From Candidatus Saccharimonadales bacterium (GTDB lineage Bacteria > Patescibacteriota > Saccharimonadia > Saccharimonadales > JBGSXW01), in contig JBGSXW010000002.1 in assembly GCA_041751215.1 (NCBI GenBank), positions 350,591 through 414,590 on the forward strand: a DNA stretch of 64,000 nucleotides. Direction: 5' to 3'. The translations under genes and the position numbers were made by a program. Below are positions 763-64,000 of this stretch, in pieces; within the stretch, counting starts at the first letter, position 1, and the number at the start of each line of letters is the position of its first letter. Under the pieces are notes generated by a model. That model was not told where the DNA came from, made no database searches, and was given only the letters and a program-made list of their open reading frames with translations.

Positions 763-1746
763 ATGAATAACGAGCAGCAAAAGCTTGAGATTATGATAAA
801 ACTACCTCGGGGATTGAGTCTACCGGGTGGTCTGGTGGGGGCTGTCGCAAAAACTAAACTTTGCGACAAAGACACCTCTATATACACGCCCTCCTTTCGT
901 AAGATAAGGCGTAGGGATGAATTTAAGCCGATAGTCCCCGTTAAAACTGCTGCGAATTGGGAGCAGCACTTTAATAGTCCGCCACACGATACGCGAGCAC
1001 CCTGGGGGCGTGTGACTAGCCATCAAGAAGGCGAGGGCGGGCGTGGAATTCATTCTTTTTATGTAACTCGATTAATTGCTATTACCGACGAATCCGTCAC
1101 GCATAATACTGCGCAAAAAATTTATCACTCACTGGATGACTGGGCACAATTACTATGCGACTGGTATGAGGTCTACTTTCAAACAACCAGAGGAAATTCC
1201 TTAGAAGTAAAGCAGCACTCCAAGCATCATGAGGGGGTACAAGTTGATAGCAATGGAAAAATCGACAGCGAACTGAAGTGTAAGCATCCAATCGCAATTA
1301 CACTTGAGGTGGGCGACAAGCCTAATATACGACCGCAAGACTGGAGACGCATACTGGAACTTACTGGCATGGAGTCTGCGCCTCCTGAACCACATATTTT
1401 GTTACGAGATTCTCGAATTGAATATGGCAGAAAAAATTATCGGAGATGTGTGCTCGATGCAGCAACTGCAGCTGAAATGGCTTTGATTAAGTTGCAAGAT
1501 TCCACCCTTTTAAATACAGACTTGAAAATTGCTAAGTCAGTTAGGAAAAAGTACCGAGGAATTTACGAGCTTGTGGAATACCTCAAGACTACAGAAGTAG
1601 AATTTCCAAAAGACCAAATAAACAATGACGTCGCAAAGCCTAGGAACAAAGCCATACATGAGGGGGTTATGCCTAGCAAGGAACAAGCGGTGGCATGTTT
1701 AGAAAAAGCGACGGAGCTAGTAAACCGAGCTTTTCCTATTAATTAG
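763..1746 (+). CDS. HEPN-domain protein (RX4H motif), candidate RNase / abortive-infection-type effector
   Basis: The C-terminal ~110 aa are predicted helical, with AKPRNKAIHEG (R294-x4-H299, nt 1642-1659) in the position of the HEPN catalytic motif. I did not recognise the N-terminal 200 aa. Confidence 0.55.
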   Translation: MNNEQQKLEIMIKLPRGLSLPGGLVGAVAKTKLCDKDTSIYTPSFRKIRRRDEFKPIVPVKTAANWEQHFNSPPHDTRAPWGRVTSHQEGEGGRGIHSFYVTRLIAITDESVTHNTAQKIYHSLDDWAQLLCDWYEVYFQTTRGNSLEVKQHSKHHEGVQVDSNGKIDSELKCKHPIAITLEVGDKPNIRPQDWRRILELTGMESAPPEPHILLRDSRIEYGRKNYRRCVLDAATAAEMALIKLQDSTLLNTDLKIAKSVRKKYRGIYELVEYLKTTEVEFPKDQINNDVAKPRNKAIHEGVMPSKEQAVACLEKATELVNRAFPIN

Positions 1747-2863: not shown

Positions 2864-3724
2864 GTGGTTTTAGGTTATAGTATGCAAATTATGTCTGTTG
2901 ACGTTTTTGACCCCATTCCCTGCTTGGACGAAGCTCGTGAACTAAAGGTTGGCTTCAGAGATCACCCGATTGATCCTGATCAGCCGCTTTTTGATGAACC
3001 GCTGGTTGCATTGGCCGATTACGGTGTTGAAGGTGTTAACTACTACAGTCAACCCAACAATGCCACCATCGATCCGGTTGAAGGCGTAACTCCCAACGTA
3101 TTTGTGCGTCGCACCGTAGCCGAGAAGTTAGCTGCCGCCGATGAGTTTCTTTTAGCCCACGACGGATTAGCGGCAATGTTTGATGGCCGTATTAAACTCT
3201 ACGTTCGCGACGGCTTTCGGTCTCCGGTTTTGCAGGAACACTTAAACAATACTGTGATCCCAAATCTGATCCGGACTCAGAATCCGCAGTGGTCCGAGCA
3301 GCAAGTAGCCCAGCGTGCTTCACAAGTTATGACTTCCGGTCTATGGAGTGAGTCCTCTATACCTCCGCACTTCACAGGTGGCGCCGCCGACGTAATACTG
3401 GTCAGAGCCGATGATGGATCGATTATTAACACCGGTTTTAAAATCGTTACTCTCGGCAGCGAAGCAATTCACACCGACCACCTAGAAGCCATTGATGTTG
3501 AAGAACATGAACTAGTGCTGGCTCGCTATGCTCGGCGCGCTTTGTATAATGTTTTAACTTCCAATGAAGTCGGCAATGTGGCGATGACTAACAATCCAAC
3601 TGAAACTTGGCATTTTTCTATTTACGATCAAATGTGGGCCCGACTCAGTAACCAGCCCGCAGCACTCTATGGAGTCCCGCCCGAAATACCAGAGGAATTA
3701 AATCTGGTGGAAATTAATAATTAG
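2864..3724 (+). CDS. D-alanyl-D-alanine dipeptidase family (peptidase M15, VanX/DdpX-like)
   Basis: PPHFTGGAADVILV and ETWHFS match the zinc-binding H..G.A.D and (E)WWHF motifs. The start is uncertain (GTG 2864, ATG 2881 or ATG 2890). Confidence 0.65.
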   Translation: MVLGYSMQIMSVDVFDPIPCLDEARELKVGFRDHPIDPDQPLFDEPLVALADYGVEGVNYYSQPNNATIDPVEGVTPNVFVRRTVAEKLAAADEFLLAHDGLAAMFDGRIKLYVRDGFRSPVLQEHLNNTVIPNLIRTQNPQWSEQQVAQRASQVMTSGLWSESSIPPHFTGGAADVILVRADDGSIINTGFKIVTLGSEAIHTDHLEAIDVEEHELVLARYARRALYNVLTSNEVGNVAMTNNPTETWHFSIYDQMWARLSNQPAALYGVPPEIPEELNLVEINN

Positions 3725-29756: not shown

Positions 29757-30533
29757 CTAGCAGGCGCCAGCCGTCACATGTTGGGTTGACCAGAGGCCGT
29801 TCTCGAAGGGCACGAGGCCGACGTCCTGCATGGACTCGAGTTCCATGATCGGGTCGTCGCTGACGCGGTTGTAAGCCGGCCAGGCATTGATCTCGTCTCC
29901 ACTCATGTAGACATGGGCCGAGATCGACTCGATGGTGTCCGTGACGAGGGCCTCACCGAATGCGTTGTGCACGCAGACCTCCATGCCGGTTTCCAGGTCC
30001 GCGAGAGACAAGGCTTCCGGATAGGTCGGATGCACGAGGTTGGCGGGAACACCCAGCAGTTCGATCGGCAACTCGATGCTCAACTCCCCTTCGGGAATGT
30101 TCACCAAGTTGGGATCGATCGGCGTGGCCGTCCACTTGTCGCTCTCGGCGCCCTGGAAGTACCAGCCCCAGTGGTCCGTCTCACAGTCGTAGTTGAAGAA
30201 CGCACCGTCCTCGCGCACTCGTGGATCATCGGGGAAACCGAGGAACTCGTAGTGATCGACGGTGACGCACTCCTCCTGCGGCAGCTCGCCGAGCATCTCG
30301 GCGCGGAGGCCGTAGTCGGGCAGGACGAACTCCTCCGGAACGCTGGTGGTCACCTCGAGCGGAGTCGGCGTGACCTCCACCACGTCCTCGTTGACCGGGA
30401 TTGTGACTTCTGGCGACGACTTGTCGCCATCATTCTCCGTCCAGTTCGCAATGAACAGGCCGATGCAAACTGACCACGCGACTGCGCCGAGGATGATGAG
30501 CCCCGCGGATTGACCGTTATCGTTACTTGGCAT
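29757..30533 (-). CDS. hypothetical membrane-anchored acidic protein on a high-GC cassette
   Basis: A 258-aa ORF with an N-terminal TM helix and GGAG 5 nt before the ATG. The other frames also stay open, which is typical of high-GC coding DNA. Confidence 0.6.
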   Translation of the reverse strand: MPSNDNGQSAGLIILGAVAWSVCIGLFIANWTENDGDKSSPEVTIPVNEDVVEVTPTPLEVTTSVPEEFVLPDYGLRAEMLGELPQEECVTVDHYEFLGFPDDPRVREDGAFFNYDCETDHWGWYFQGAESDKWTATPIDPNLVNIPEGELSIELPIELLGVPANLVHPTYPEALSLADLETGMEVCVHNAFGEALVTDTIESISAHVYMSGDEINAWPAYNRVSDDPIMELESMQDVGLVPFENGLWSTQHVTAGAC

Positions 30534-47189: not shown

Positions 47190-47394
47190 GAAGCCTAGAT
47201 TCCTGCTTCCGCAGGAATGACAAGGTTTTGGTCTAAGTTCTTTTCGCGGATGAAATGCAAGGAAGATGTGAAGCACAGAGGCGGGCTGTGCAAGTGGCAC
47301 TGCCCCCGAGTACTGGAGCGTCTGACGCAGAGCCGGCAGAGCTGTTGGCTCTGCCAACAGGCAGGCCGGCGACAGTTCGCCGTGAGAGGTTAGG
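47190..47394 (-). repeat. GC-rich structured intergenic element, copy B
   Basis: The core 47258-47332 aligns to copy C at 53/75 without gaps (hand count) and to copy A with small indels. Hairpins lie at 47199-47218, 47335-47355 and 47367-47382. It abuts the murJ stop. Confidence 0.6.
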
Positions 47395-54497: not shown

Positions 54498-54572
54498 ACT
54501 GAGGTTTAATTATAGCTCATTTTGAGCCTACAACATATAACTAATGATGATGCCTGTATAATAAACGCCAGC

Positions 54573-55496
54573 ATGAATCATTTAGTTTCACTCGATCAAC
54601 TGCTCGACACAGAATTATTGGCAAAACTATTTGACCGAGCAGCTGAGTTCAAACTCTTAAGCAGCCGCGATTACCCTCAGGTACTGCAAGGAAAAACCGT
54701 GGCAACGTTGTTTTACGAACCCAGCACTCGCACGCGCTTGTCTTTTGAAGCAGCGGCGCAAAATTTGGGTGCACGTCTAATTAGCACTGAAAACGCCGGT
54801 CAATTCTCGTCTGCTGCAAAAGGGGAGTCGCTAGAAGACAGTATTTGCACTGTTGGCTGTTACGCTGATTGCATCATTCTTAGGCATCCAGAAAAAGGCG
54901 CATCCCACGCCGCTGCCGAAGTTTCTAAAGTGCCGATTATCAACGCTGGCGATGGCGCCGGTGAACATCCAACCCAGGCCATGCTAGATTTATTTACGGT
55001 TCTTGAATCCAAGCCAAATGCTAGTGATTTATCAATTGGCCTAGTGGGCGACTTACTGTACGGTCGCACCATTCACTCGCTTTGCCAATTGCTAGCTCTC
55101 TACAAGCCCAAAACCGTTTACGCGGTTGCTCCGTCTGGCTTAGAGTTGCCAGCTCAGTATGCAAAAACCCTAAAGGAGTCGGGAGTTGATCTAAAGCAGG
55201 TTGATAACTGGGACGAGGCCATCACGAAAATTGACGTACTTTATATGACAAGAATTCAGCGTGAGCGCTTTGCGACAGAATCGCAATATCTAAAACTCAA
55301 GGACTCGTTTGTTCTAACGCCTGACGAAGTTAAGAAAATGAAAAGCGATGCTATGATCCTTCATCCATTGCCAAGAGTAAACGAAATCGACCCGCTTGTA
55401 GATGCCGATCTTCGTGCCCTCTACCTTGAACAAGCGCGCAATGGATTGTTTGTTCGAATGGCGTTGCTTGAGTATGCAATAAACAGACCTTCATAG
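54573..55496 (+). CDS. pyrB: aspartate carbamoyltransferase catalytic subunit
   Basis: STRTR, HPTQ, GRTIHS, TRIQRERF and HPLPR are all present. Start chosen at ATG 54573 (MNHLVSLDQL), 10 nt after TATAAT. Confidence 0.9.
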   Translation: MNHLVSLDQLLDTELLAKLFDRAAEFKLLSSRDYPQVLQGKTVATLFYEPSTRTRLSFEAAAQNLGARLISTENAGQFSSAAKGESLEDSICTVGCYADCIILRHPEKGASHAAAEVSKVPIINAGDGAGEHPTQAMLDLFTVLESKPNASDLSIGLVGDLLYGRTIHSLCQLLALYKPKTVYAVAPSGLELPAQYAKTLKESGVDLKQVDNWDEAITKIDVLYMTRIQRERFATESQYLKLKDSFVLTPDEVKKMKSDAMILHPLPRVNEIDPLVDADLRALYLEQARNGLFVRMALLEYAINRPS

Positions 55497-60042: not shown

Positions 60043-60525
60043 CTATCTAGCAAGTGCGCGTAGAGTAAGTAAATCGACTTCTGATTTGTTGTGTCTATCA
60101 TCGTTGACCCACGCAGCTTCAATGGTTGCAACGTAGATTCTCAGCGGGCTTTCATCAAGAAAATCCTCGACTGGTGGCACGGTCTTGCCCCGAAAACGAA
60201 CTTCCAGTAAGCGCTTGAGCTCATTCGTATCAACCACTTCATGCGCTACGGCCTTGGTGTAAAAACCAAAGTCGCCCACGTCTTCTGTTTCACTGAAAAC
60301 GGTAATAGATACCTGAGGATTTTTCTTAATATGCTCTGAGTGCTGCGTATCTTTTAAAGATTTCCAGATGATATTCACGTCTGAGTCATAGCTCAAGTTC
60401 AAGCAAACACACCACGGCGCTCCCTCCGAATCGACAGTCGCCAAAGCAAACTGCTTGTGACGCGGCAAGTTATCGAGCACAAAGGACGCAACAGATTTTG
60501 GATCGTTTTCGTTAAAGTTGCTCAT
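60043..60525 (-). CDS. pyridoxamine 5'-phosphate oxidase-like FMN-binding protein
   Basis: The size and split-barrel pattern fit (...ATVDSEGAPWCVCLN...). This is a weak motif-level call. Confidence 0.5.
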   Translation of the reverse strand: MSNFNENDPKSVASFVLDNLPRHKQFALATVDSEGAPWCVCLNLSYDSDVNIIWKSLKDTQHSEHIKKNPQVSITVFSETEDVGDFGFYTKAVAHEVVDTNELKRLLEVRFRGKTVPPVEDFLDESPLRIYVATIEAAWVNDDRHNKSEVDLLTLRALAR

Positions 60526-60540
60526 AAGGGTAATTATACA

Positions 60541-60729
60541 CGTCGAGAAGTGGCGGCCTTGTTAACAGAACCGCAGTGCTTGATTTGGTTTCTGGCCAGG
60601 AAGAACTGAAACACAGACCGATGCTGTGTAACTGACACCGCTCGGGAGTATTGGAGGCTCTGACGCCGCCAGAAAGCAAAAGGCCGGCAGCGCAGTGAGC
60701 TATGCTCGCTGGCAGGCCGGCCGATCAAG
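60541..60729 (-). repeat. GC-rich structured intergenic element, copy C
   Basis: The core 60596-60670 aligns to copy B at 53/75 without gaps. The hairpin GCTGTGT/ACACCGC covaries with GCTGTGC/GCACTGC of A and B. An 8-bp hairpin CAGTGAGC-TAT-GCTCGCTG is present. Confidence 0.6.
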
Positions 60730-60734
60730 TTCTG

Positions 60735-60781
60735 TGGTAGCGGCGACTGGATTTGAACCAGTGACCCCAGGCTTATGAGTC
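60735..60781 (-). pseudogene. truncated tRNA(CAT): 3' half only (anticodon loop to CCA)
   Basis: GACTCATAAGCCTGGGGTCACTGGTTCAAATCCAGTCGCCGCTACCA is 40/47 identical to the 3' half of the intact tRNA at 60949-61025, with compensatory T-stem changes. There is no matching 5' acceptor strand upstream. Confidence 0.8.
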
Positions 60782-60948
60782 TTGCCTTTGACGCTAATGC
60801 TAACGACTTCACCAAGGTGTACGAACGAGCATCACTGCGTTTTCGTCAGCACATGATTGGTGCTATTGCCGTCAACTCTAGCCGTCAGAATGATTAACAC
60901 GAGCAGGGATTAAGTTGTTATTTGTATAACTTTTTTAATAAAGTCAAA

Positions 60949-61025
60949 TGGTAGCACCGACAGGAATTGAACCTGTGACCTTAGGCTTATGAGTCCTACG
61001 CTCTAACCAACTGAGCTACGGTGCC
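60949..61025 (-). tRNA. tRNA with CAT anticodon (elongator Met or lysidine-dependent Ile2)
   Basis: GGCACCG/CGGTGCT acceptor, loop CTCATAA, T-arm ACAGG-TTCAATT-CCTGT, encoded ACCA. It is not initiator-like. There is an A31-G39 mismatch. Confidence 0.9.
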
Positions 61026-61154
61026 ACATTAAGCTAATATATCATAATACGCCCCTGTTGGCTACTGTAAAAGCTAGGTGCTAGATACTTTGGCTTATTA
61101 AGTCAAATGCCCTACGAACTACCGACCCACCATGCCTACCTATATAGTTGCCGA

Positions 61155-62066
61155 CTATAATAGGAAATGCTTAACGATAGCCATACGCATGTATAAGCCT
61201 AATTCATTTTGAATAAAGTAGTAGGCTTTCGGGGATTTATCAACTTCTGTGTCTATCTCGTCAATTCTTGGCAATGGGTTCATGATTATACAGTCCTCAG
61301 CTAATAAAGCTTCAATCTTACTATCTATAATGTACTGTCGGACTATTTTCTGGCTAAAAGTTCCCGATGGATTTATGGGCGGAAAGCCAGCACTATAAAC
61401 TACCTGTTCATTACCAAGCTCTTGTTTGGTAATTTGCTTTAATGAATTGCTCTTCTTGAAGTCATCAGTATATTTATCTGGTAAGCTCAACTCTTTTGGT
61501 GTTATCTCATTCACTGTATTACCCGAAAACTTGGCAAGTAAAAGCATTAGCGAATGTACCGAGCGAGAATAACGGGTATCGCCGATAAAAGTAATGGTTA
61601 GATTATCTAGCCTTCCAAACCTAACCCATATTGCGTATGCGTCAATCAGTGCTTGTGATGGGTGTTCATCATAGCCATTTCCGCAGTTGATAATCGGGTA
61701 GTCAGTAAAGGGCGTGACTTCTTTAAAAACCCTTTCATCATGATGACGAATAAAATATGCGTTCACATACGCATTCAAAGTCCTGATGGTATCAGGCATA
61801 CTTTCAGCCCACCCCTCTGATACGCTAGGCTTTGCTTCATCAAGTAGCACAGATTTATATCCAAGCTTCCAAGAAGCCGTTTCAAAACCAATTCTAGTAC
61901 GGGTTGAGGGCTGGAAAAAGAGCAAGCCAAATAACTTAGAATTATCTATACCGTTACTGTTAATGGGCTTTAAGCGGAAATCATTAGCTGTCGCAAAAAG
62001 GCTGAGAATATCTTCTCGTTTTAAGTCTTTAATGGATAGCAAGTTCATTACTTGATAATAACCCAA
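61155..62066 (-). CDS. divergent aspartate/ornithine transcarbamylase-family paralog (substrate unknown)
   Basis: The carbamoyl-phosphate site is conserved (STRTR, HPSQ, GDTRYSRSVHS, NPLPR), but the ATCase TR(V/I)QKER aspartate-binding motif is absent. Confidence 0.7.
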   Translation of the reverse strand: MGYYQVMNLLSIKDLKREDILSLFATANDFRLKPINSNGIDNSKLFGLLFFQPSTRTRIGFETASWKLGYKSVLLDEAKPSVSEGWAESMPDTIRTLNAYVNAYFIRHHDERVFKEVTPFTDYPIINCGNGYDEHPSQALIDAYAIWVRFGRLDNLTITFIGDTRYSRSVHSLMLLLAKFSGNTVNEITPKELSLPDKYTDDFKKSNSLKQITKQELGNEQVVYSAGFPPINPSGTFSQKIVRQYIIDSKIEALLAEDCIIMNPLPRIDEIDTEVDKSPKAYYFIQNELGLYMRMAIVKHFLL

Positions 62067-62193
62067 AATAATTTTTTACAATAGTACTTCCAGGGTGTAA
62101 TATTATATATAGAACAATAATTGGACTTTCCACATGTGATAGCTTAAAAATCGCTAGCTGGTATTGGAAAAAATAAGAGGGTAAACAAATTAT

Positions 62194-62898
62194 ATGACAG
62201 AACGCTTACCAGAAAGTATTGAACGAACCGAGGAGCCCACACGTGAGATTGGCAGGCTAGTCCTTGACGTTATTCAGACAAGACGAAGTATCCGTGAGGG
62301 ATTTATGGATATACCAGTCTCAAACGATGTCATTAACGGAATTATTCAGAGTGGCTTAACAGCACCATCAAGTAAAAATGCACAGCCCTGGCGGGTTCAT
62401 GTGGTTCATAGAGGAGAGATGCTTGATGACATTGCCGACTATGTGCAAAGTGCTAAGGATGCAAGTCGATATGCGCCAATAGACCCTGCAACAGAAGAAA
62501 TACGAGAATGGCCTTCCACTGTAGCTGAATCTGCTCAAACTCTAAGAGGTGTAAGCGTTGGTTTATTTGTTGAAAATACAGTTCCTTTTAGTGAAGGCAA
62601 GAACTATTTATCCAAGTATATAAGACAAAATGAAGGGGTACTTTTGGATGGCTATGCTTTGGAAATGATGAGCCTTGGTGCAATGATACAAAATATGTGG
62701 TTAAGTGCCCACGCACAAGGCCTTTCTGGTGTATTTATGGGTGATGTAATGGTCGCTGAAGATGATATACGAGAACGACTAGAAATTGACGGTGATTTAA
62801 CAGGCGTTCTTGCACTTGGTTATGCAGACCAGAACACATTTGATAAGAAGCTAAGGGGTGATAAAGTAGTCTTTCACACGATGGGTGAGGAGGTATAG
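62194..62898 (+). CDS. nitroreductase-family flavoprotein
   Basis: TRRSIREGF...APSSKNAQPWRVHVV. Confidence 0.8.
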   Translation: MTERLPESIERTEEPTREIGRLVLDVIQTRRSIREGFMDIPVSNDVINGIIQSGLTAPSSKNAQPWRVHVVHRGEMLDDIADYVQSAKDASRYAPIDPATEEIREWPSTVAESAQTLRGVSVGLFVENTVPFSEGKNYLSKYIRQNEGVLLDGYALEMMSLGAMIQNMWLSAHAQGLSGVFMGDVMVAEDDIRERLEIDGDLTGVLALGYADQNTFDKKLRGDKVVFHTMGEEV

Positions 62899-62900
62899 TT

Positions 62901-64000
62901 ATGTCGTACGGAATTGAACAGAGTGGGTTCTCTCCTATCACTGATCCAGAGGCCGCACAGCGACTAAAAATTGATTTAATTACCGATGGCTTATCAGTTA
63001 GTCCTGAAACAAAGGCAGCCTTAGTAGAATCAGAGGATATACCGCTTACGCTTGCTGACTACGCTTCTACGTCTGGTGTAACATTGAAACTACCCAATGA
63101 TACTTGGGTTAATGCTCCTTTTAGTGAGTTCAACCCTAATTTTGTAGATACACCAGCTAACAGCTTGTCAGTAGAAGACGGAAAATTATATGTAGTAAAC
63201 GGTGATGACGCATACGAAGCAGAGTTTATCCCCGTTCCTGCTTATCACGACAAGACATTAGAAGATGGTAGCCCAGTAAAATGGATTGCAATTACTCACT
63301 CCGATAGAGTACGCTTATCGCCTATCAAAGGTTGTGCAATTCAATGTGATTTCTGTGACATACCATTTGATAAAGCTCCTGACGAACCAGCATACCGTGG
63401 ACAAAAAATCATCGGTAATATTCTTGAAGCAACTGGTGTAGCCTTGCAAGACCCCATATTGCCTGCTCAACACGCATTAATATCTGGTGGTACACCGAGA
63501 AAGAGTGATTACGGCTATGAGAATGAAGTGTACGAACGCATGGTTATTGAGAACCCAGATATTGATGTAGATATTATGATGGTGCCAATGCCTGGTCTGC
63601 TTAATATCAAGCGATTAGGTGAAATCGGCATACATGGTTTAAGTATCAATATAGAGCTATGGAACAAAGACATTGCAAAAGCTACTATGCGTAGTAAAGC
63701 AAAGGCTTCAAGGGAACTGTACTTAGACTTTATTGAAAAGGCTGCAGAGGAATTTGGTGCTGGCAGAGTTCGTTCATTACTAATGGTCGGAATTGAGCCA
63801 ATAGAAGATACGCTTCGGGGCGTGGAAGCTCTAGCTGAACGTGGTTGCGACCCAGTGCTTAGTCCGTTCCGCCCAGACCCCATCACTCCTATGAGAGATG
63901 TTAAACCATCAACAGCAGACGAACTATTAGAGGTATGGCAACGCAGCCAAGAGATTGTTGGTAAATACGAAGGCGTTAAACTAGGTCCACGCTGTATCCC
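62901..64000 (+). CDS. radical SAM enzyme with ~140-aa N-terminal extension (partial; runs off right edge)
   Basis: The frame is open from ATG 62901 (GAGGAGG SD) to the window end. The CAIQCDFC CX3CX2C motif lies at 63333-63356, with a downstream ISGGTP glycine-rich SAM motif. It is absent from the ORF track because it is open-ended. Confidence 0.75.
   Translation, partial: MSYGIEQSGFSPITDPEAAQRLKIDLITDGLSVSPETKAALVESEDIPLTLADYASTSGVTLKLPNDTWVNAPFSEFNPNFVDTPANSLSVEDGKLYVVNGDDAYEAEFIPVPAYHDKTLEDGSPVKWIAITHSDRVRLSPIKGCAIQCDFCDIPFDKAPDEPAYRGQKIIGNILEATGVALQDPILPAQHALISGGTPRKSDYGYENEVYERMVIENPDIDVDIMMVPMPGLLNIKRLGEIGIHGLSINIELWNKDIAKATMRSKAKASRELYLDFIEKAAEEFGAGRVRSLLMVGIEPIEDTLRGVEALAERGCDPVLSPFRPDPITPMRDVKPSTADELLEVWQRSQEIVGKYEGVKLGPRCI

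What the first reader, a model, noticed from the sequence alone, without database searches (positions are those of the whole stretch)
60735..61025. Half-tRNA direct repeat: 47-nt anticodon-loop-to-CCA copy 167 nt downstream of an intact tRNA(CAT)
The fragment is 40/47 identical to the 3' half of the intact gene. It differs by compensatory T-stem changes (ACAGG/CCTGT versus ACTGG/CCAGT) and by a different acceptor 3' strand (CGGTGCT versus CGCCGCT). It therefore derives from a distinct, once-functional tRNA rather than from a recent local duplication. A full tRNA followed by a same-orientation copy starting in the anticodon loop is the classic attL/attR footprint of integrase-mediated insertion into a tRNA gene (anticodon-loop class). 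Here only about 170 bp of AT-rich DNA lies between the repeats, and no integrase is present. The footprint could be a decayed island scar or a miniature element.
Basis: partly seen in the sequence, partly recalled or inferred. Interest (0 to 1): 0.55.

Follow-up and report, generated by a model that had tools for sequence, protein, structure and literature searches.

The report
Mobile-element junction inside a tRNA-Met gene
The half-tRNA is the leftover 3' half of this Saccharibacteria genome's own methionine tRNA gene, split by a mobile element, and the intact tRNA beside it was brought in by that element; this is a known kind of event seen here in a little-studied bacterial group.

Summary
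An intact tRNA(CAT) lies at 60949-61025 (-). A 47-nt copy running from the anticodon loop to CCA lies at 60735-60781 (-). They are 167 nt apart and 40/47 identical.

The interpretation needs revising. The two are not the regenerated target gene and its displaced fragment around a 170-bp remnant.

- **The fragment is native.** It matches a Saccharibacteria relative's tRNA-Met at 44/47, including the acceptor strand. It keeps its own terminator and flank.
- **The intact tRNA is imported.** The tRNA, its promoter region and a 106-nt conserved arm recur in contig L035. There the tRNA is 77/77 identical, but it abuts a different host half-tRNA.
- **The junction recurs.** Two more contigs (L036, L037) carry the same arm joined at the anticodon arm to other tRNA-Met halves. 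L037 shows the classical layout.
- **The DNA to the right looks foreign.** It has GC3 of 0.31-0.38 and holds a horizontally shared four-gene cassette.

The locus is best read as one end junction (attR: element arm joined to the host 3' half) of a tRNA-Met-targeting integrative element lying to the right. Its far end and integrase are outside the data. The closest known parallel is "tRNA-dependent lysogeny", which remains unproven here.

The parts
60735..60781 (-). Displaced 3' half of the genome's native elongator-type tRNA-Met, running from positions 30-31 and the anticodon loop to CCA. This is the host side of the attR junction.
   Evidence: Present once in the window. It is 44/47 identical, with the same acceptor strand CGCCGCT, to the intact tRNA-Met of Saccharibacteria relative L004. 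It does not score as a full tRNA.
60773..60779 (-). Anticodon loop CTCATAA, the presumed crossover (overlap) segment.
   Evidence: In all four loci the conserved element arm meets the variable host tRNA sequence at this loop (alignment A2). Placing the crossover inside the loop is an inference.
60782..60887 (-). Conserved 106-nt element arm (like the P arm of an attP site). It contains the repeated motifs GACGGC (twice) and TTAGC.../GCGTCA and can fold into a long hairpin.
   Evidence: Recurs in L035, L036 and L037 directly next to different tRNA-Met halves, with nhmmer E-values of 1e-28 to 1e-33. It is 88.5% identical to the L035 copy. Fold z-score -3.3. Covariation is uninformative.
60888..60948 (-). 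AT-rich linker (26% GC) between the element-borne tRNA and the arm.
   Evidence: Composition. Its length and sequence are not conserved in L035 (58 versus 32 nt aligned, 43% identity).
60949..61025 (-). Intact elongator-type tRNA-Met(CAT), here called tRNA-Met', carried by the element.
   Evidence: Found by ARAGORN and Rfam at 71.1 bits. It is 77/77 identical in L035, where both flanks differ. Its acceptor stem GGCACCG/CGGTGCT is self-consistent and incompatible with the fragment.
61026..61148 (-). Conserved region upstream of tRNA-Met'. It holds a promoter-like site (TTTACA-16-TATTAT, 61071-61044) and the motif ACTATATAGGTAGGCATGGTGGGT (within 61093-61148).
   Evidence: Promoter scan scored 10/12. 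The region is 76% identical to L035. The motif alone is also found downstream of the ATCase-like gene in L029 and L158-161, which then diverge at about window position 61085.
61155..62066 (-). ATCase-like paralogue, the first gene of a four-gene cassette on the foreign side of the junction.
   Evidence: Pfam domains OTCace_N and OTCace. GC3 is 0.38. Homologues reach 89% aa identity, against 61% at best for the native flank gene. The cassette is 73-84% nt identical (78-84% in most of them) in other contigs with different contexts.
62194..64000 (+). Nitroreductase (62194-62898) and the start of a radical-SAM gene (from 62901). The cassette continues beyond the window with an ATP-grasp gene, an HTH_7-like gene and a 280-aa ORF.
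   Evidence: GC3 is 0.32. Logan contig L001 extends the window to the equivalent of position 67915.
60595..60725 (-). Native downstream context of the split tRNA: a strong hairpin plus T-run terminator (about 60678-60725), sitting inside an intergenic module specific to this genome.
   Evidence: Fold energy -35.5 kcal/mol, z-score -3.2. A second copy of the module (68% identical) lies between murJ and lepA at 47257-47370.
60043..60525 (-). PNPOx-family gene, part of the native chromosomal flank.
   Evidence: Pfam PNPOx_N. GC3 is 0.50, typical of the genome.

Best explanation
The locus is one end (attR: element arm joined to the host 3' half) of an integrative mobile element. The element inserted into the anticodon loop of this Saccharibacteria genome's own elongator tRNA-Met gene.

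**Layout, read on the minus strand.** In order: element cargo, including the low-GC four-gene cassette; a promoter; an element-borne intact tRNA-Met'; an AT-rich linker; a 106-nt conserved element arm; the anticodon loop, where crossover is presumed; the host's displaced 3' half; the host's own terminator; the host chromosome. The element therefore lies to the right of the fragment and runs off the window.

**Shown.**
- The fragment is of the host type and sits in host context.
- The arm and the tRNA-Met' module are mobile. They recur joined to different host tRNA-Met halves.
- The junction falls at the same tRNA position in four loci.

**Inferred.**
- A site-specific (most likely tyrosine) integrase catalysed the insertion.
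- The host 5' half and the integrase lie at the unseen far end.

**Most likely function of the intact tRNA (my estimate about 0.4).** It substitutes for the split host gene, as in 'tRNA-dependent lysogeny'. In that system the element does not rebuild the target and instead carries a tRNA of the same type. The alternative (about 0.3) is that the target is rebuilt at the unseen end and tRNA-Met' is a redundant passenger.
For: **1. The fragment is native.**
- It is 44/47 identical to the intact tRNA-Met of relative L004, with an identical acceptor 3' strand. Two of the three differences form one compensatory T-stem pair.
- It is followed by its own terminator, inside an intergenic module that also occurs between murJ and lepA in the same genome.

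**2. The intact tRNA is not the regenerated target.**
- Its 5' strand GGCACCG leaves two mismatches against the fragment's CGCCGCT.
- In L035 the same tRNA (77/77), its upstream region (76%) and the arm (88.5%) adjoin a different half-tRNA (33/47 identical; T stem GTAGG/CCTAC; acceptor CATCGAC). The outer flanks also differ.

**3. The junction recurs.**
- L036 and L037 carry the same arm fused at the anticodon arm to two further tRNA-Met halves (nhmmer E-values 1e-28 to 1e-33).
- In all four loci the element side keeps a 4-5 of 5 match to the anticodon-stem 5' strand (CAAGA, CAAGA, CAGGA, CAAGC). This is what an anticodon-centred core site would look like.

**4. L037 shows the classical layout.** It has an intact tRNA-Met (GGCGATG...CATCGCT), then 1.8 kb, then the arm, then a fragment with the same acceptor strand. 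The fragment differs 3' of the loop by one compensatory T-stem pair. So the arm belongs to a family that integrates at tRNA-Met.

**5. There is a composition break at the junction.** GC3 is 0.31-0.38 for the four cassette genes to the right, against 0.39-0.53 for nearly all other genes.

**6. The DNA to the right looks horizontally shared.**
- The ATCase-like gene has 89% aa homologues, while the native PNPOx has at best 61% in the same database.
- The cassette is 73-84% nt identical (78-84% in most of them) in contigs with unrelated flanks.

**7. The intact tRNA looks expressed.** A promoter-like site lies upstream of tRNA-Met' and is conserved in L035.

**8. There is precedent.** The principle of a displaced fragment marking an island end is established, and 2083 of 3919 Islander islands have anticodon-centred sites (PMC4383910). 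Elements that carry a tRNA of the same type to replace a target they do not rebuild are described in PMC10865867.
Against: - No integrase was found in the 7.1 kb of element DNA available (60782 to the equivalent of 67915). The far end (attL) was not seen, so neither integrase-mediated insertion nor non-reconstruction of the target is demonstrated.
- The only mobile-element-like gene is a 75-aa HTH_7 / terminase-small-subunit-like ORF, and its hits are weak.
- No free (attP) form or phage relative of the arm was found in IMG/VR.
- The tRNA-Met' module and the four-gene cassette are separable. L035 lacks the cassette, and L158 and L029 lack the module. The element's limits are therefore unclear.
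- In L036 the arm's neighbour is tRNA-Phe, not a tRNA-Met. The same-type tRNA is therefore not a constant feature of the family.
- No close relative with an empty site exists in the searched collections.
Confidence: 0.6

Rival explanations
1. **Classical tRNA-targeting island with a passenger tRNA.** The geometry is the same, with the element to the right and the fragment as attR. The element's attP carries a tRNA-Met 3' half, so the host gene is rebuilt at the unseen attL. The nearby tRNA-Met' is redundant cargo, perhaps a former attL captured from an earlier host.
For: L037, a member of the same arm family, has exactly the rebuilding layout. The T stem of tRNA-Met' (ACAGG/CCTGT) is the same as that of the element-derived 3' half in L037. 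Rebuilding is the rule among Islander islands.
Against: This reading gives no reason for an element to keep a tRNA of exactly the target's type, 100% conserved and with its own promoter, about 60 nt from its arm. In the actinophage families studied, close relatives switch between rebuilding the target and carrying a tRNA of the same type. L037 therefore does not decide the window's case.
Confidence: 0.28
2. **The first reader's reading.** The intact tRNA is the regenerated target (attL), the fragment is attR, and the 167 nt between them is a decayed island scar or a miniature element.
For: The order and orientation fit: intact gene, then a same-strand 3' fragment. L037 shows that short, integrase-less intervals of 1.8 kb occur in this family.
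Against: - The acceptor strands are incompatible (GGCACCG versus CGCCGCT).
- The intact tRNA and its upstream 125 nt are conserved in L035, while the fragment there is a different allele.
- The composition break and the foreign cassette lie upstream of the intact tRNA, not between the repeats.
Confidence: 0.05
3. **No site-specific recombination in this genome.** A foreign segment (cassette, tRNA-Met', arm and a donor half-tRNA) entered by homologous or homology-facilitated recombination. One crossover fell in the 14 nt shared by donor and recipient tRNA-Met (GACTCATAAGCCTG). This replaced the native 5' half and left a scar that only looks like attR.
For: No integrase or attL was seen. The cassette sits next to other tRNA genes in other genomes without any half-tRNA, which suggests that tRNA genes also act as general rearrangement points here.
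Against: Four loci with four different host alleles all switch from conserved arm to host-specific sequence at the same place. Random homologous crossovers along a 47-nt, roughly 85%-identical stretch would not be expected to do that. L037 retains both junctions in classical form.
Confidence: 0.1
4. **A functional RNA.** The arm plus half-tRNA would be a split, permuted or intron-containing tRNA-Met, or a tRNA-like domain at the 3' end of a small RNA.
For: - The half keeps a perfect T arm, discriminator base and CCA in all four loci.
- The arm is well conserved and folds.
- The tRNA model gives weak sub-threshold full-length alignments in L036 and L037 (about 21 bits).
Against: - The acceptor 3' strand varies (CGCCGCT, CATCGAC, CCCTGCT, CATCGCT) with no covarying partner in the nearly invariant arm.
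- No 5' half exists in 68 kb.
- An intact elongator tRNA-Met is present nearby in three of four loci.
- In L037 the half simply copies that genome's intact gene.
- There is no Rfam family and no significant tmRNA score.
Confidence: 0.03
5. **Local tandem duplication.** A second tRNA(CAT) gene arose by duplication and later lost its 5' half by deletion.
For: The two copies lie on the same strand and close together.
Against: The two copies differ in co-adapted stems, so they come from different lineages. The same breakpoint and the same adjoining 106 nt recur in unrelated contigs. There is a composition break at the site.
Confidence: 0.02

Closest known systems
Genomic islands and prophages integrated at the anticodon loop of tRNA genes (Islander principle; 'anticodon-centred' attP class of Williams 2002 and Hudson et al. 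2015, PMC4383910)
   Same: A same-strand 3' tRNA-gene fragment starting at the anticodon arm marks one end of foreign DNA. The junction position is constant across host alleles. The element side keeps an anticodon-stem-like half-site. L037 has the full classical layout.
   Different: In the window the adjacent intact tRNA is not the rebuilt target. No integrase and no attL are in the available sequence. The element end carries a complete tRNA of the same type as the target.
tRNA-dependent lysogeny of actinobacteriophages such as Fionnbharth, LeBron, Gaia, OneUp and Mollymur (Guerrero-Bustamante & Hatfull 2024, PMC10865867); also suggested there for the Lactobacillus johnsonii prophage Lj965
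   Same: The target is a tRNA gene. [quoted passage not shown] Close relatives in the family differ in whether they rebuild the target or carry a same-type tRNA (compare L037 with the window and L035).
   Different: The host is a Saccharibacterium rather than an actinobacterium. A phage nature is not shown. A short common core and failure to rebuild the target are untested, because attL and attP are unseen. Here the tRNA sits about 60 nt from the att arm, whereas in Fionnbharth it overlaps a distant gene.
Large-serine-recombinase elements beside tRNA genes in Saccharibacteria (seen here in L028)
   Same: In L028 the same four-gene cassette lies in an element with a 545-aa serine recombinase. 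The end of that recombinase's ORF overlaps tRNA-Asn on the opposite strand.
   Different: No such recombinase is found in the window or its extension. L028 has no half-tRNA. The recombinase family is ubiquitous in Saccharibacteria and is not tied to the tRNA-Met arm.
Split tRNA genes (Nanoarchaeum type) and tRNA genes with anticodon-loop introns
   Same: A free-standing 3' half that begins near the anticodon loop and is preceded by a structured leader.
   Different: There is no 5' half, no covarying leader or acceptor pairing, and an intact gene of the same type is present. The break lies at the start of the anticodon arm, not at position 37/38.

Membership tests
tRNA-targeting integrative island (Islander criteria) | A tRNA-gene fragment in the same orientation as a tRNA gene, marking an island end | tested here: met
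   A 47-nt 3' fragment lies on the minus strand at 60735-60781. The same kind of fragment, joined to the same conserved arm, occurs in L035-L037.
tRNA-targeting integrative island (Islander criteria) | A regenerated intact target whose 5' half is cognate to the displaced fragment | tested here: not met
   The adjacent intact tRNA has 5' strand GGCACCG against the fragment's CGCCGCT, and it is identical in L035, where the fragment differs. No GGCGGCG-type 5' half occurs in the window or L001. The true attL, if it exists, lies beyond the available sequence.
tRNA-targeting integrative island (Islander criteria) | An integrase gene inside the island | tested here: inconclusive
   None found in 60782 to the equivalent of 67915 (Pfam, PHROGs and tblastn). 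The island continues beyond the data.
tRNA-targeting integrative island (Islander criteria) | A constant crossover position within the tRNA (anticodon loop flanked by stem half-sites) | tested here: met
   The switch from arm to host sequence falls at the anticodon arm in four loci. The element side reads CAAGA, CAAGA, CAGGA or CAAGC.
tRNA-dependent lysogeny | [quoted passage not shown] | tested here: met
   An intact elongator-type tRNA-Met(CAT) lies inside the conserved element block and is 77/77 identical in L035. The elongator assignment rests on similarity to L004a and to E. coli metT recalled from my own knowledge.
tRNA-dependent lysogeny | A short common core, so that no functional tRNA is rebuilt at the attachment junction | not testable with these tools
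   attL and attP are not in any sequence I could retrieve.
tRNA-dependent lysogeny | A tyrosine integrase and a temperate-phage nature | tested here: inconclusive
   No integrase was seen. The only phage-like signal is the 75-aa HTH ORF (PHROG terminase small subunit, E-value 7.6e-9). The arm and the tRNA have no relatives in IMG/VR.
tRNA-dependent lysogeny | The host has no other gene for that tRNA type | not testable with these tools
   Only 64 kb plus 3.9 kb of the genome is available. No other tRNA(CAT) occurs in it.
Split, permuted or intron-containing tRNA | A 5' half whose acceptor strand pairs with the 3' half, either nearby or covarying across genomes | tested here: not met
   ARAGORN and Rfam find none. 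BLAST with the expected 5' half finds none. Acceptor strands vary without any covarying partner.
Large-serine-recombinase element | A serine recombinase gene in the element | tested here: not met
   tblastn with the L028 recombinase against the window and L001 finds nothing beyond antisense-tRNA noise.

The most novel reading that the evidence does not exclude
A family of integrative elements in Saccharibacteria (candidate phyla radiation) splits the host's only elongator tRNA-Met gene at the anticodon loop without rebuilding it. The elements carry their own promoter-driven tRNA-Met next to the attachment arm. The host would then depend on the element for an essential tRNA. This would be 'tRNA-dependent' integration outside Actinobacteria phages, acting as an addiction device in very small genomes with a single copy of each tRNA.
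Probability: 0.35. Interest if true: 0.6.

Novelty: new member of a known kind. Interest (0 to 1): 0.42.

Why it matters
Mobile elements of Saccharibacteria and other ultra-small bacteria are poorly mapped. This locus defines a recognisable element end: a 106-nt arm, often accompanied by a tRNA-Met gene. That end can be used to find such elements and their target site in metagenomes.

If the element-borne tRNA really replaces the split host gene, the recently described tRNA-dependent mode of integration would extend to a distant phylum. In a phylum where each tRNA is usually single-copy, a mobile element would then have become indispensable.

For genome annotation, it is also a clear case where the tRNA next to a tRNA fragment is not the fragment's partner.

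Tried and rejected
**1. Synteny in relatives.** Twenty-three loci found with pyrC (GTDB species representatives) share only the pyr genes. None has the flank or a tRNA at this place. The one useful by-product was L004's tRNA-Met.

**2. Contexts of homologues of the left-flank PNPOx gene.** The best homologue is 61% identical and shows no synteny, so no empty site could be found. The source's 419-kb NCBI contig could not be retrieved.

**3. A large serine recombinase as the integrase.**
- L028 has one next to the same cassette, with its ORF end overlapping tRNA-Asn.
- The window has none, L028 has no half-tRNA, and the family is ubiquitous in Saccharibacteria.
- I dropped it as the explanation for this locus.

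**4. Viral contigs.** Exact 3' halves of both tRNAs and one arm pattern gave nothing. A looser 15-base arm pattern gave only chance hits.

**5. RNA families.** Nothing beyond the intact tRNA was found. The tmRNA and permuted-tmRNA alignments to the fragment are not significant.

**6. Covariation in the arm hairpin.** Almost all pairs are invariant in four sequences, so it neither supports nor excludes an RNA structure.

**7. The 41-aa ORF (60775-60900, +) that starts at the complement of the anticodon.**
- I treated it as spurious. Its 'homologues' are the same DNA junction translated, with N-termini that are antisense tRNA.
- It was nevertheless the handle that located L035-L037.

**8. A miniature element of about 365 nt (motif to arm) as the whole mobile unit.** Rejected because no tRNA 5' half abuts the motif in the window or in L035.

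**9. More copies of the arm.** A search of all 157 held loci found none.

Full report
**1.

- The window is from a Saccharibacteria (TM7) genome of about 47% GC. Its pyrC gene is at best 74% identical to any GTDB species representative, and all close hits are Saccharibacteria.
- ARAGORN and Rfam find an intact tRNA-Met(CAT) at 60949-61025 on the minus strand.
- After 167 nt on the same strand, 60735-60781 repeats the anticodon loop through to the CCA end, with 40 of 47 positions identical.
One T-stem pair is changed on both sides, and the acceptor 3' strand is different.
- About 1e-12 such matches are expected by chance in the window. There is no third copy.
- The fragment does not score as a tRNA and has no 5' half in front of it.

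**2. The fragment is the native gene's 3' half**

- A Saccharibacteria relative, L004, has an intact tRNA-Met: GGCGGCGTAGCTCAGTTGGTTAGAGCACAGGACTCATAAGCCTGGGGTCAGTGGTTCAAGTCCACTCGCCGCTACCA.
- The fragment matches its 3' half at 44 of 47 positions. The acceptor strand CGCCGCT is identical, and two of the three differences are a compensatory T-stem pair.
- Directly 3' of the fragment is a strong hairpin with a T-run (-35.5 kcal/mol, z-score -3.2).
- That hairpin sits inside a roughly 125-nt intergenic module. A second copy lies between the core genes murJ and lepA in the same window.
- Genes to the left have GC3 typical of the genome.

**3. The intact tRNA is not the fragment's partner**

- Its acceptor stem (GGCACCG/CGGTGCT) is internally consistent. 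Its 5' strand would leave two mismatches against the fragment's CGCCGCT.
- It differs from the L004-type gene in both halves (13 of 77 positions). It is therefore not a host-5'/element-3' hybrid of the native gene.

**4. The spacer is a conserved, mobile sequence**

- A protein-level search with the spurious ORF that crosses the spacer found three small ORFs. Their N-termini are antisense tRNA.
- Their contigs all carry the same junction. A conserved stretch of about 105 nt is fused at the anticodon arm to a tRNA-Met 3' half: GACGGCTAGAGTTGACGGCAATAGCACCAA...AAGTCATTAGCATTAGCGTCA.

The four half-tRNAs differ in ways that preserve the fold:

| Locus | T stem | Acceptor 3' strand |
|---|---|---|
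| window | ACTGG/CCAGT | CGCCGCT |
| L035 | GTAGG/CCTAC | CATCGAC |
| L036 | GCGAG/CTCGC | CCCTGCT |
| L037 | ACTGG/CCAGT | CATCGCT |

- These halves descend from different functional tRNA-Met genes, while the arm is nearly invariant (alignment A2; nhmmer E-values 1e-28 to 1e-33).
- The element side always ends in a 4-5 of 5 match to the anticodon-stem 5' strand.
- No partner in the arm covaries with the changing acceptor strands. This argues against a split tRNA or tRNA-like RNA.

**5. L035 and L037 fix the geometry**

L035 holds the same block as the window, joined to a different host half. Identities to the window by segment:

| Segment | Identity to the window |
|---|---|
| Intact tRNA | 77/77 |
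| About 125 nt upstream, including the promoter-like site | 76% |
| Arm | 88.5% |
| Host half-tRNA | 33/47 |
| Outer flanks | unrelated |

- The tRNA, its promoter and the arm therefore travel together, while the half-tRNA belongs to each host.
- L037 shows the classical arrangement for the same arm family. It has an intact tRNA-Met, then 1.8 kb, then the arm, then a fragment. The fragment's acceptor strand equals that of the intact gene, and it differs 3' of the loop by one compensatory T-stem pair.
- On the tRNA strand, the arm and everything 5' of it are element DNA. In window coordinates the element lies to the right of 60781.

**6. The right side looks foreign**

- GC3 falls to 0.31-0.38 in the ATCase-like, nitroreductase, radical-SAM and ATP-grasp genes. 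Elsewhere it is about 0.39-0.53.
- The ATCase-like protein has homologues at 87-89% identity. The native PNPOx reaches only 61% in the same database.
- The four-gene cassette is 73-84% identical at the DNA level (78-84% in most of them) in Logan, JGI and ENA contigs. Their flanks are unrelated to this window.
- Beyond the window, Logan contig L001 adds a 75-aa HTH_7 / terminase-small-like ORF and a 280-aa ORF. It adds no integrase and no tRNA 5' half.
- The tRNA-Met' module and the cassette are separable. L035 has the module without the cassette. L158-161 and L029 have the cassette and a shared 60-nt motif but then diverge at about window position 61085. The element is therefore mosaic, and its full extent is unknown.

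**7. Mechanism**

- The best reading is an attR junction produced by site-specific integration at the anticodon loop of the host's elongator tRNA-Met. This is the commonest position class for tRNA-targeting islands (2083 of 3919 in Islander; PMC4383910).
- The unusual feature is a complete, promoter-equipped tRNA of the same type as the target, about 60 nt from the arm.
- That is the defining cargo of 'tRNA-dependent lysogeny' (PMC10865867). In that system the common core is only 8-17 bp, the host tRNA is not rebuilt, and the phage tRNA keeps the lysogen alive.
- In those phage groups, close relatives switch between rebuilding the target and carrying a tRNA. The contrast between L037 and the window/L035 pair looks the same.
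- Whether the window's element rebuilds the host gene cannot be decided, because attL, attP and the integrase are outside every sequence I could obtain.
- My estimates are about 0.4 for the replacement-tRNA mode, about 0.3 for classical rebuilding with a passenger tRNA, and about 0.1 for a recombinational scar without integrase action in this genome.

**8. Comparison and verdict**

- The locus is a new member of a known kind: an island junction in a tRNA gene, possibly of the tRNA-dependent variety, in a phylum where such elements are barely described.
- Interest is moderate. It would rise if the far end shows that the host's only tRNA-Met gene is left broken.

Noticed in passing
window 61155-64000 and beyond (L001 1-4028); also L028, L029/L030, L031/L163, L032, L158-L162: A four-gene cassette (ATCase-like paralogue, nitroreductase, radical-SAM enzyme, ATP-grasp enzyme) at about 40% GC. 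It is conserved at 73-84% nt identity (78-84% in most of them) in Saccharibacteria-type contigs with unrelated flanks, and the genome keeps a separate bona fide pyrB at 54522-55496. In several contigs it is bounded by tRNA genes: Ser-CGA in L029, His and Gly/Arg in L031, Asn in L028. It may be a mobile small-molecule or nucleotide-modification module. Its function is unknown.
   Followed up: partly
window 60595-60725 and 47257-47370: A roughly 125-nt intergenic module present twice (68% identical, blastn E-value 4e-8). It has two hairpins that differ by apparently compensatory changes. Each copy sits just downstream (minus strand) of a gene end: the tRNA-Met fragment and murJ. It has no Rfam match. 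It may be a terminator or REP-like element, or a small RNA.
   Followed up: partly
L028 2304-3974: A 545-aa large serine recombinase whose last 14 codons or so are the antisense of the 3' end of an intact tRNA-Asn(GTT). Homologues of the same length are extremely common in Saccharibacteria (2775 hits at E <= 1e-30, the top 120 at 71% identity or more). This suggests a widespread recombinase tied to the tRNA-Asn locus.
   Followed up: partly
window 61093-61148; L035 about 385-443; L029 11030-11087; L158 about 3320-3380: A conserved motif, AACTATATAGGTAG(G/A)CAT(G/A)GTG(G/A)GT, plus about 35 nt. It occurs at the joint between different modules: after the ATCase-like gene, and before the tRNA-Met' promoter. 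It could be a recombination joint or a regulatory site.
   Followed up: partly
window 29757-30533 (-): A 258-aa ORF with 61% GC and GC3 of 0.82, far above the genome's roughly 0.45, with an overlapping 186-aa ORF on the other strand. Neither has a Pfam match. It is either a compositionally odd insert or non-coding GC-rich DNA.
   Followed up: partly
L001 4030-5040 (equivalent to window 65430-66440): About 1 kb with no convincing ORF between the ATP-grasp gene and the HTH gene, in places GC-rich and repetitive-looking. It has no Rfam match at E <= 0.1.
   Followed up: no
L037 about 1635-1665 (+): A T-arm and acceptor-like sequence (GAGAGTTCGAATCTCTCATCCCCA) inside the 1.8-kb interval between the intact tRNA-Met and its fragment. 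It may be a relic of another tRNA gene.
   Followed up: no
window 60775-60900 (+): A 41-aa ORF whose ATG is the complement of the fragment's CAT anticodon. Gene callers predict the equivalent ORF in other assemblies (P0265, P0267, P0268). It is almost certainly spurious, but it is a useful search handle for this junction.
   Followed up: yes
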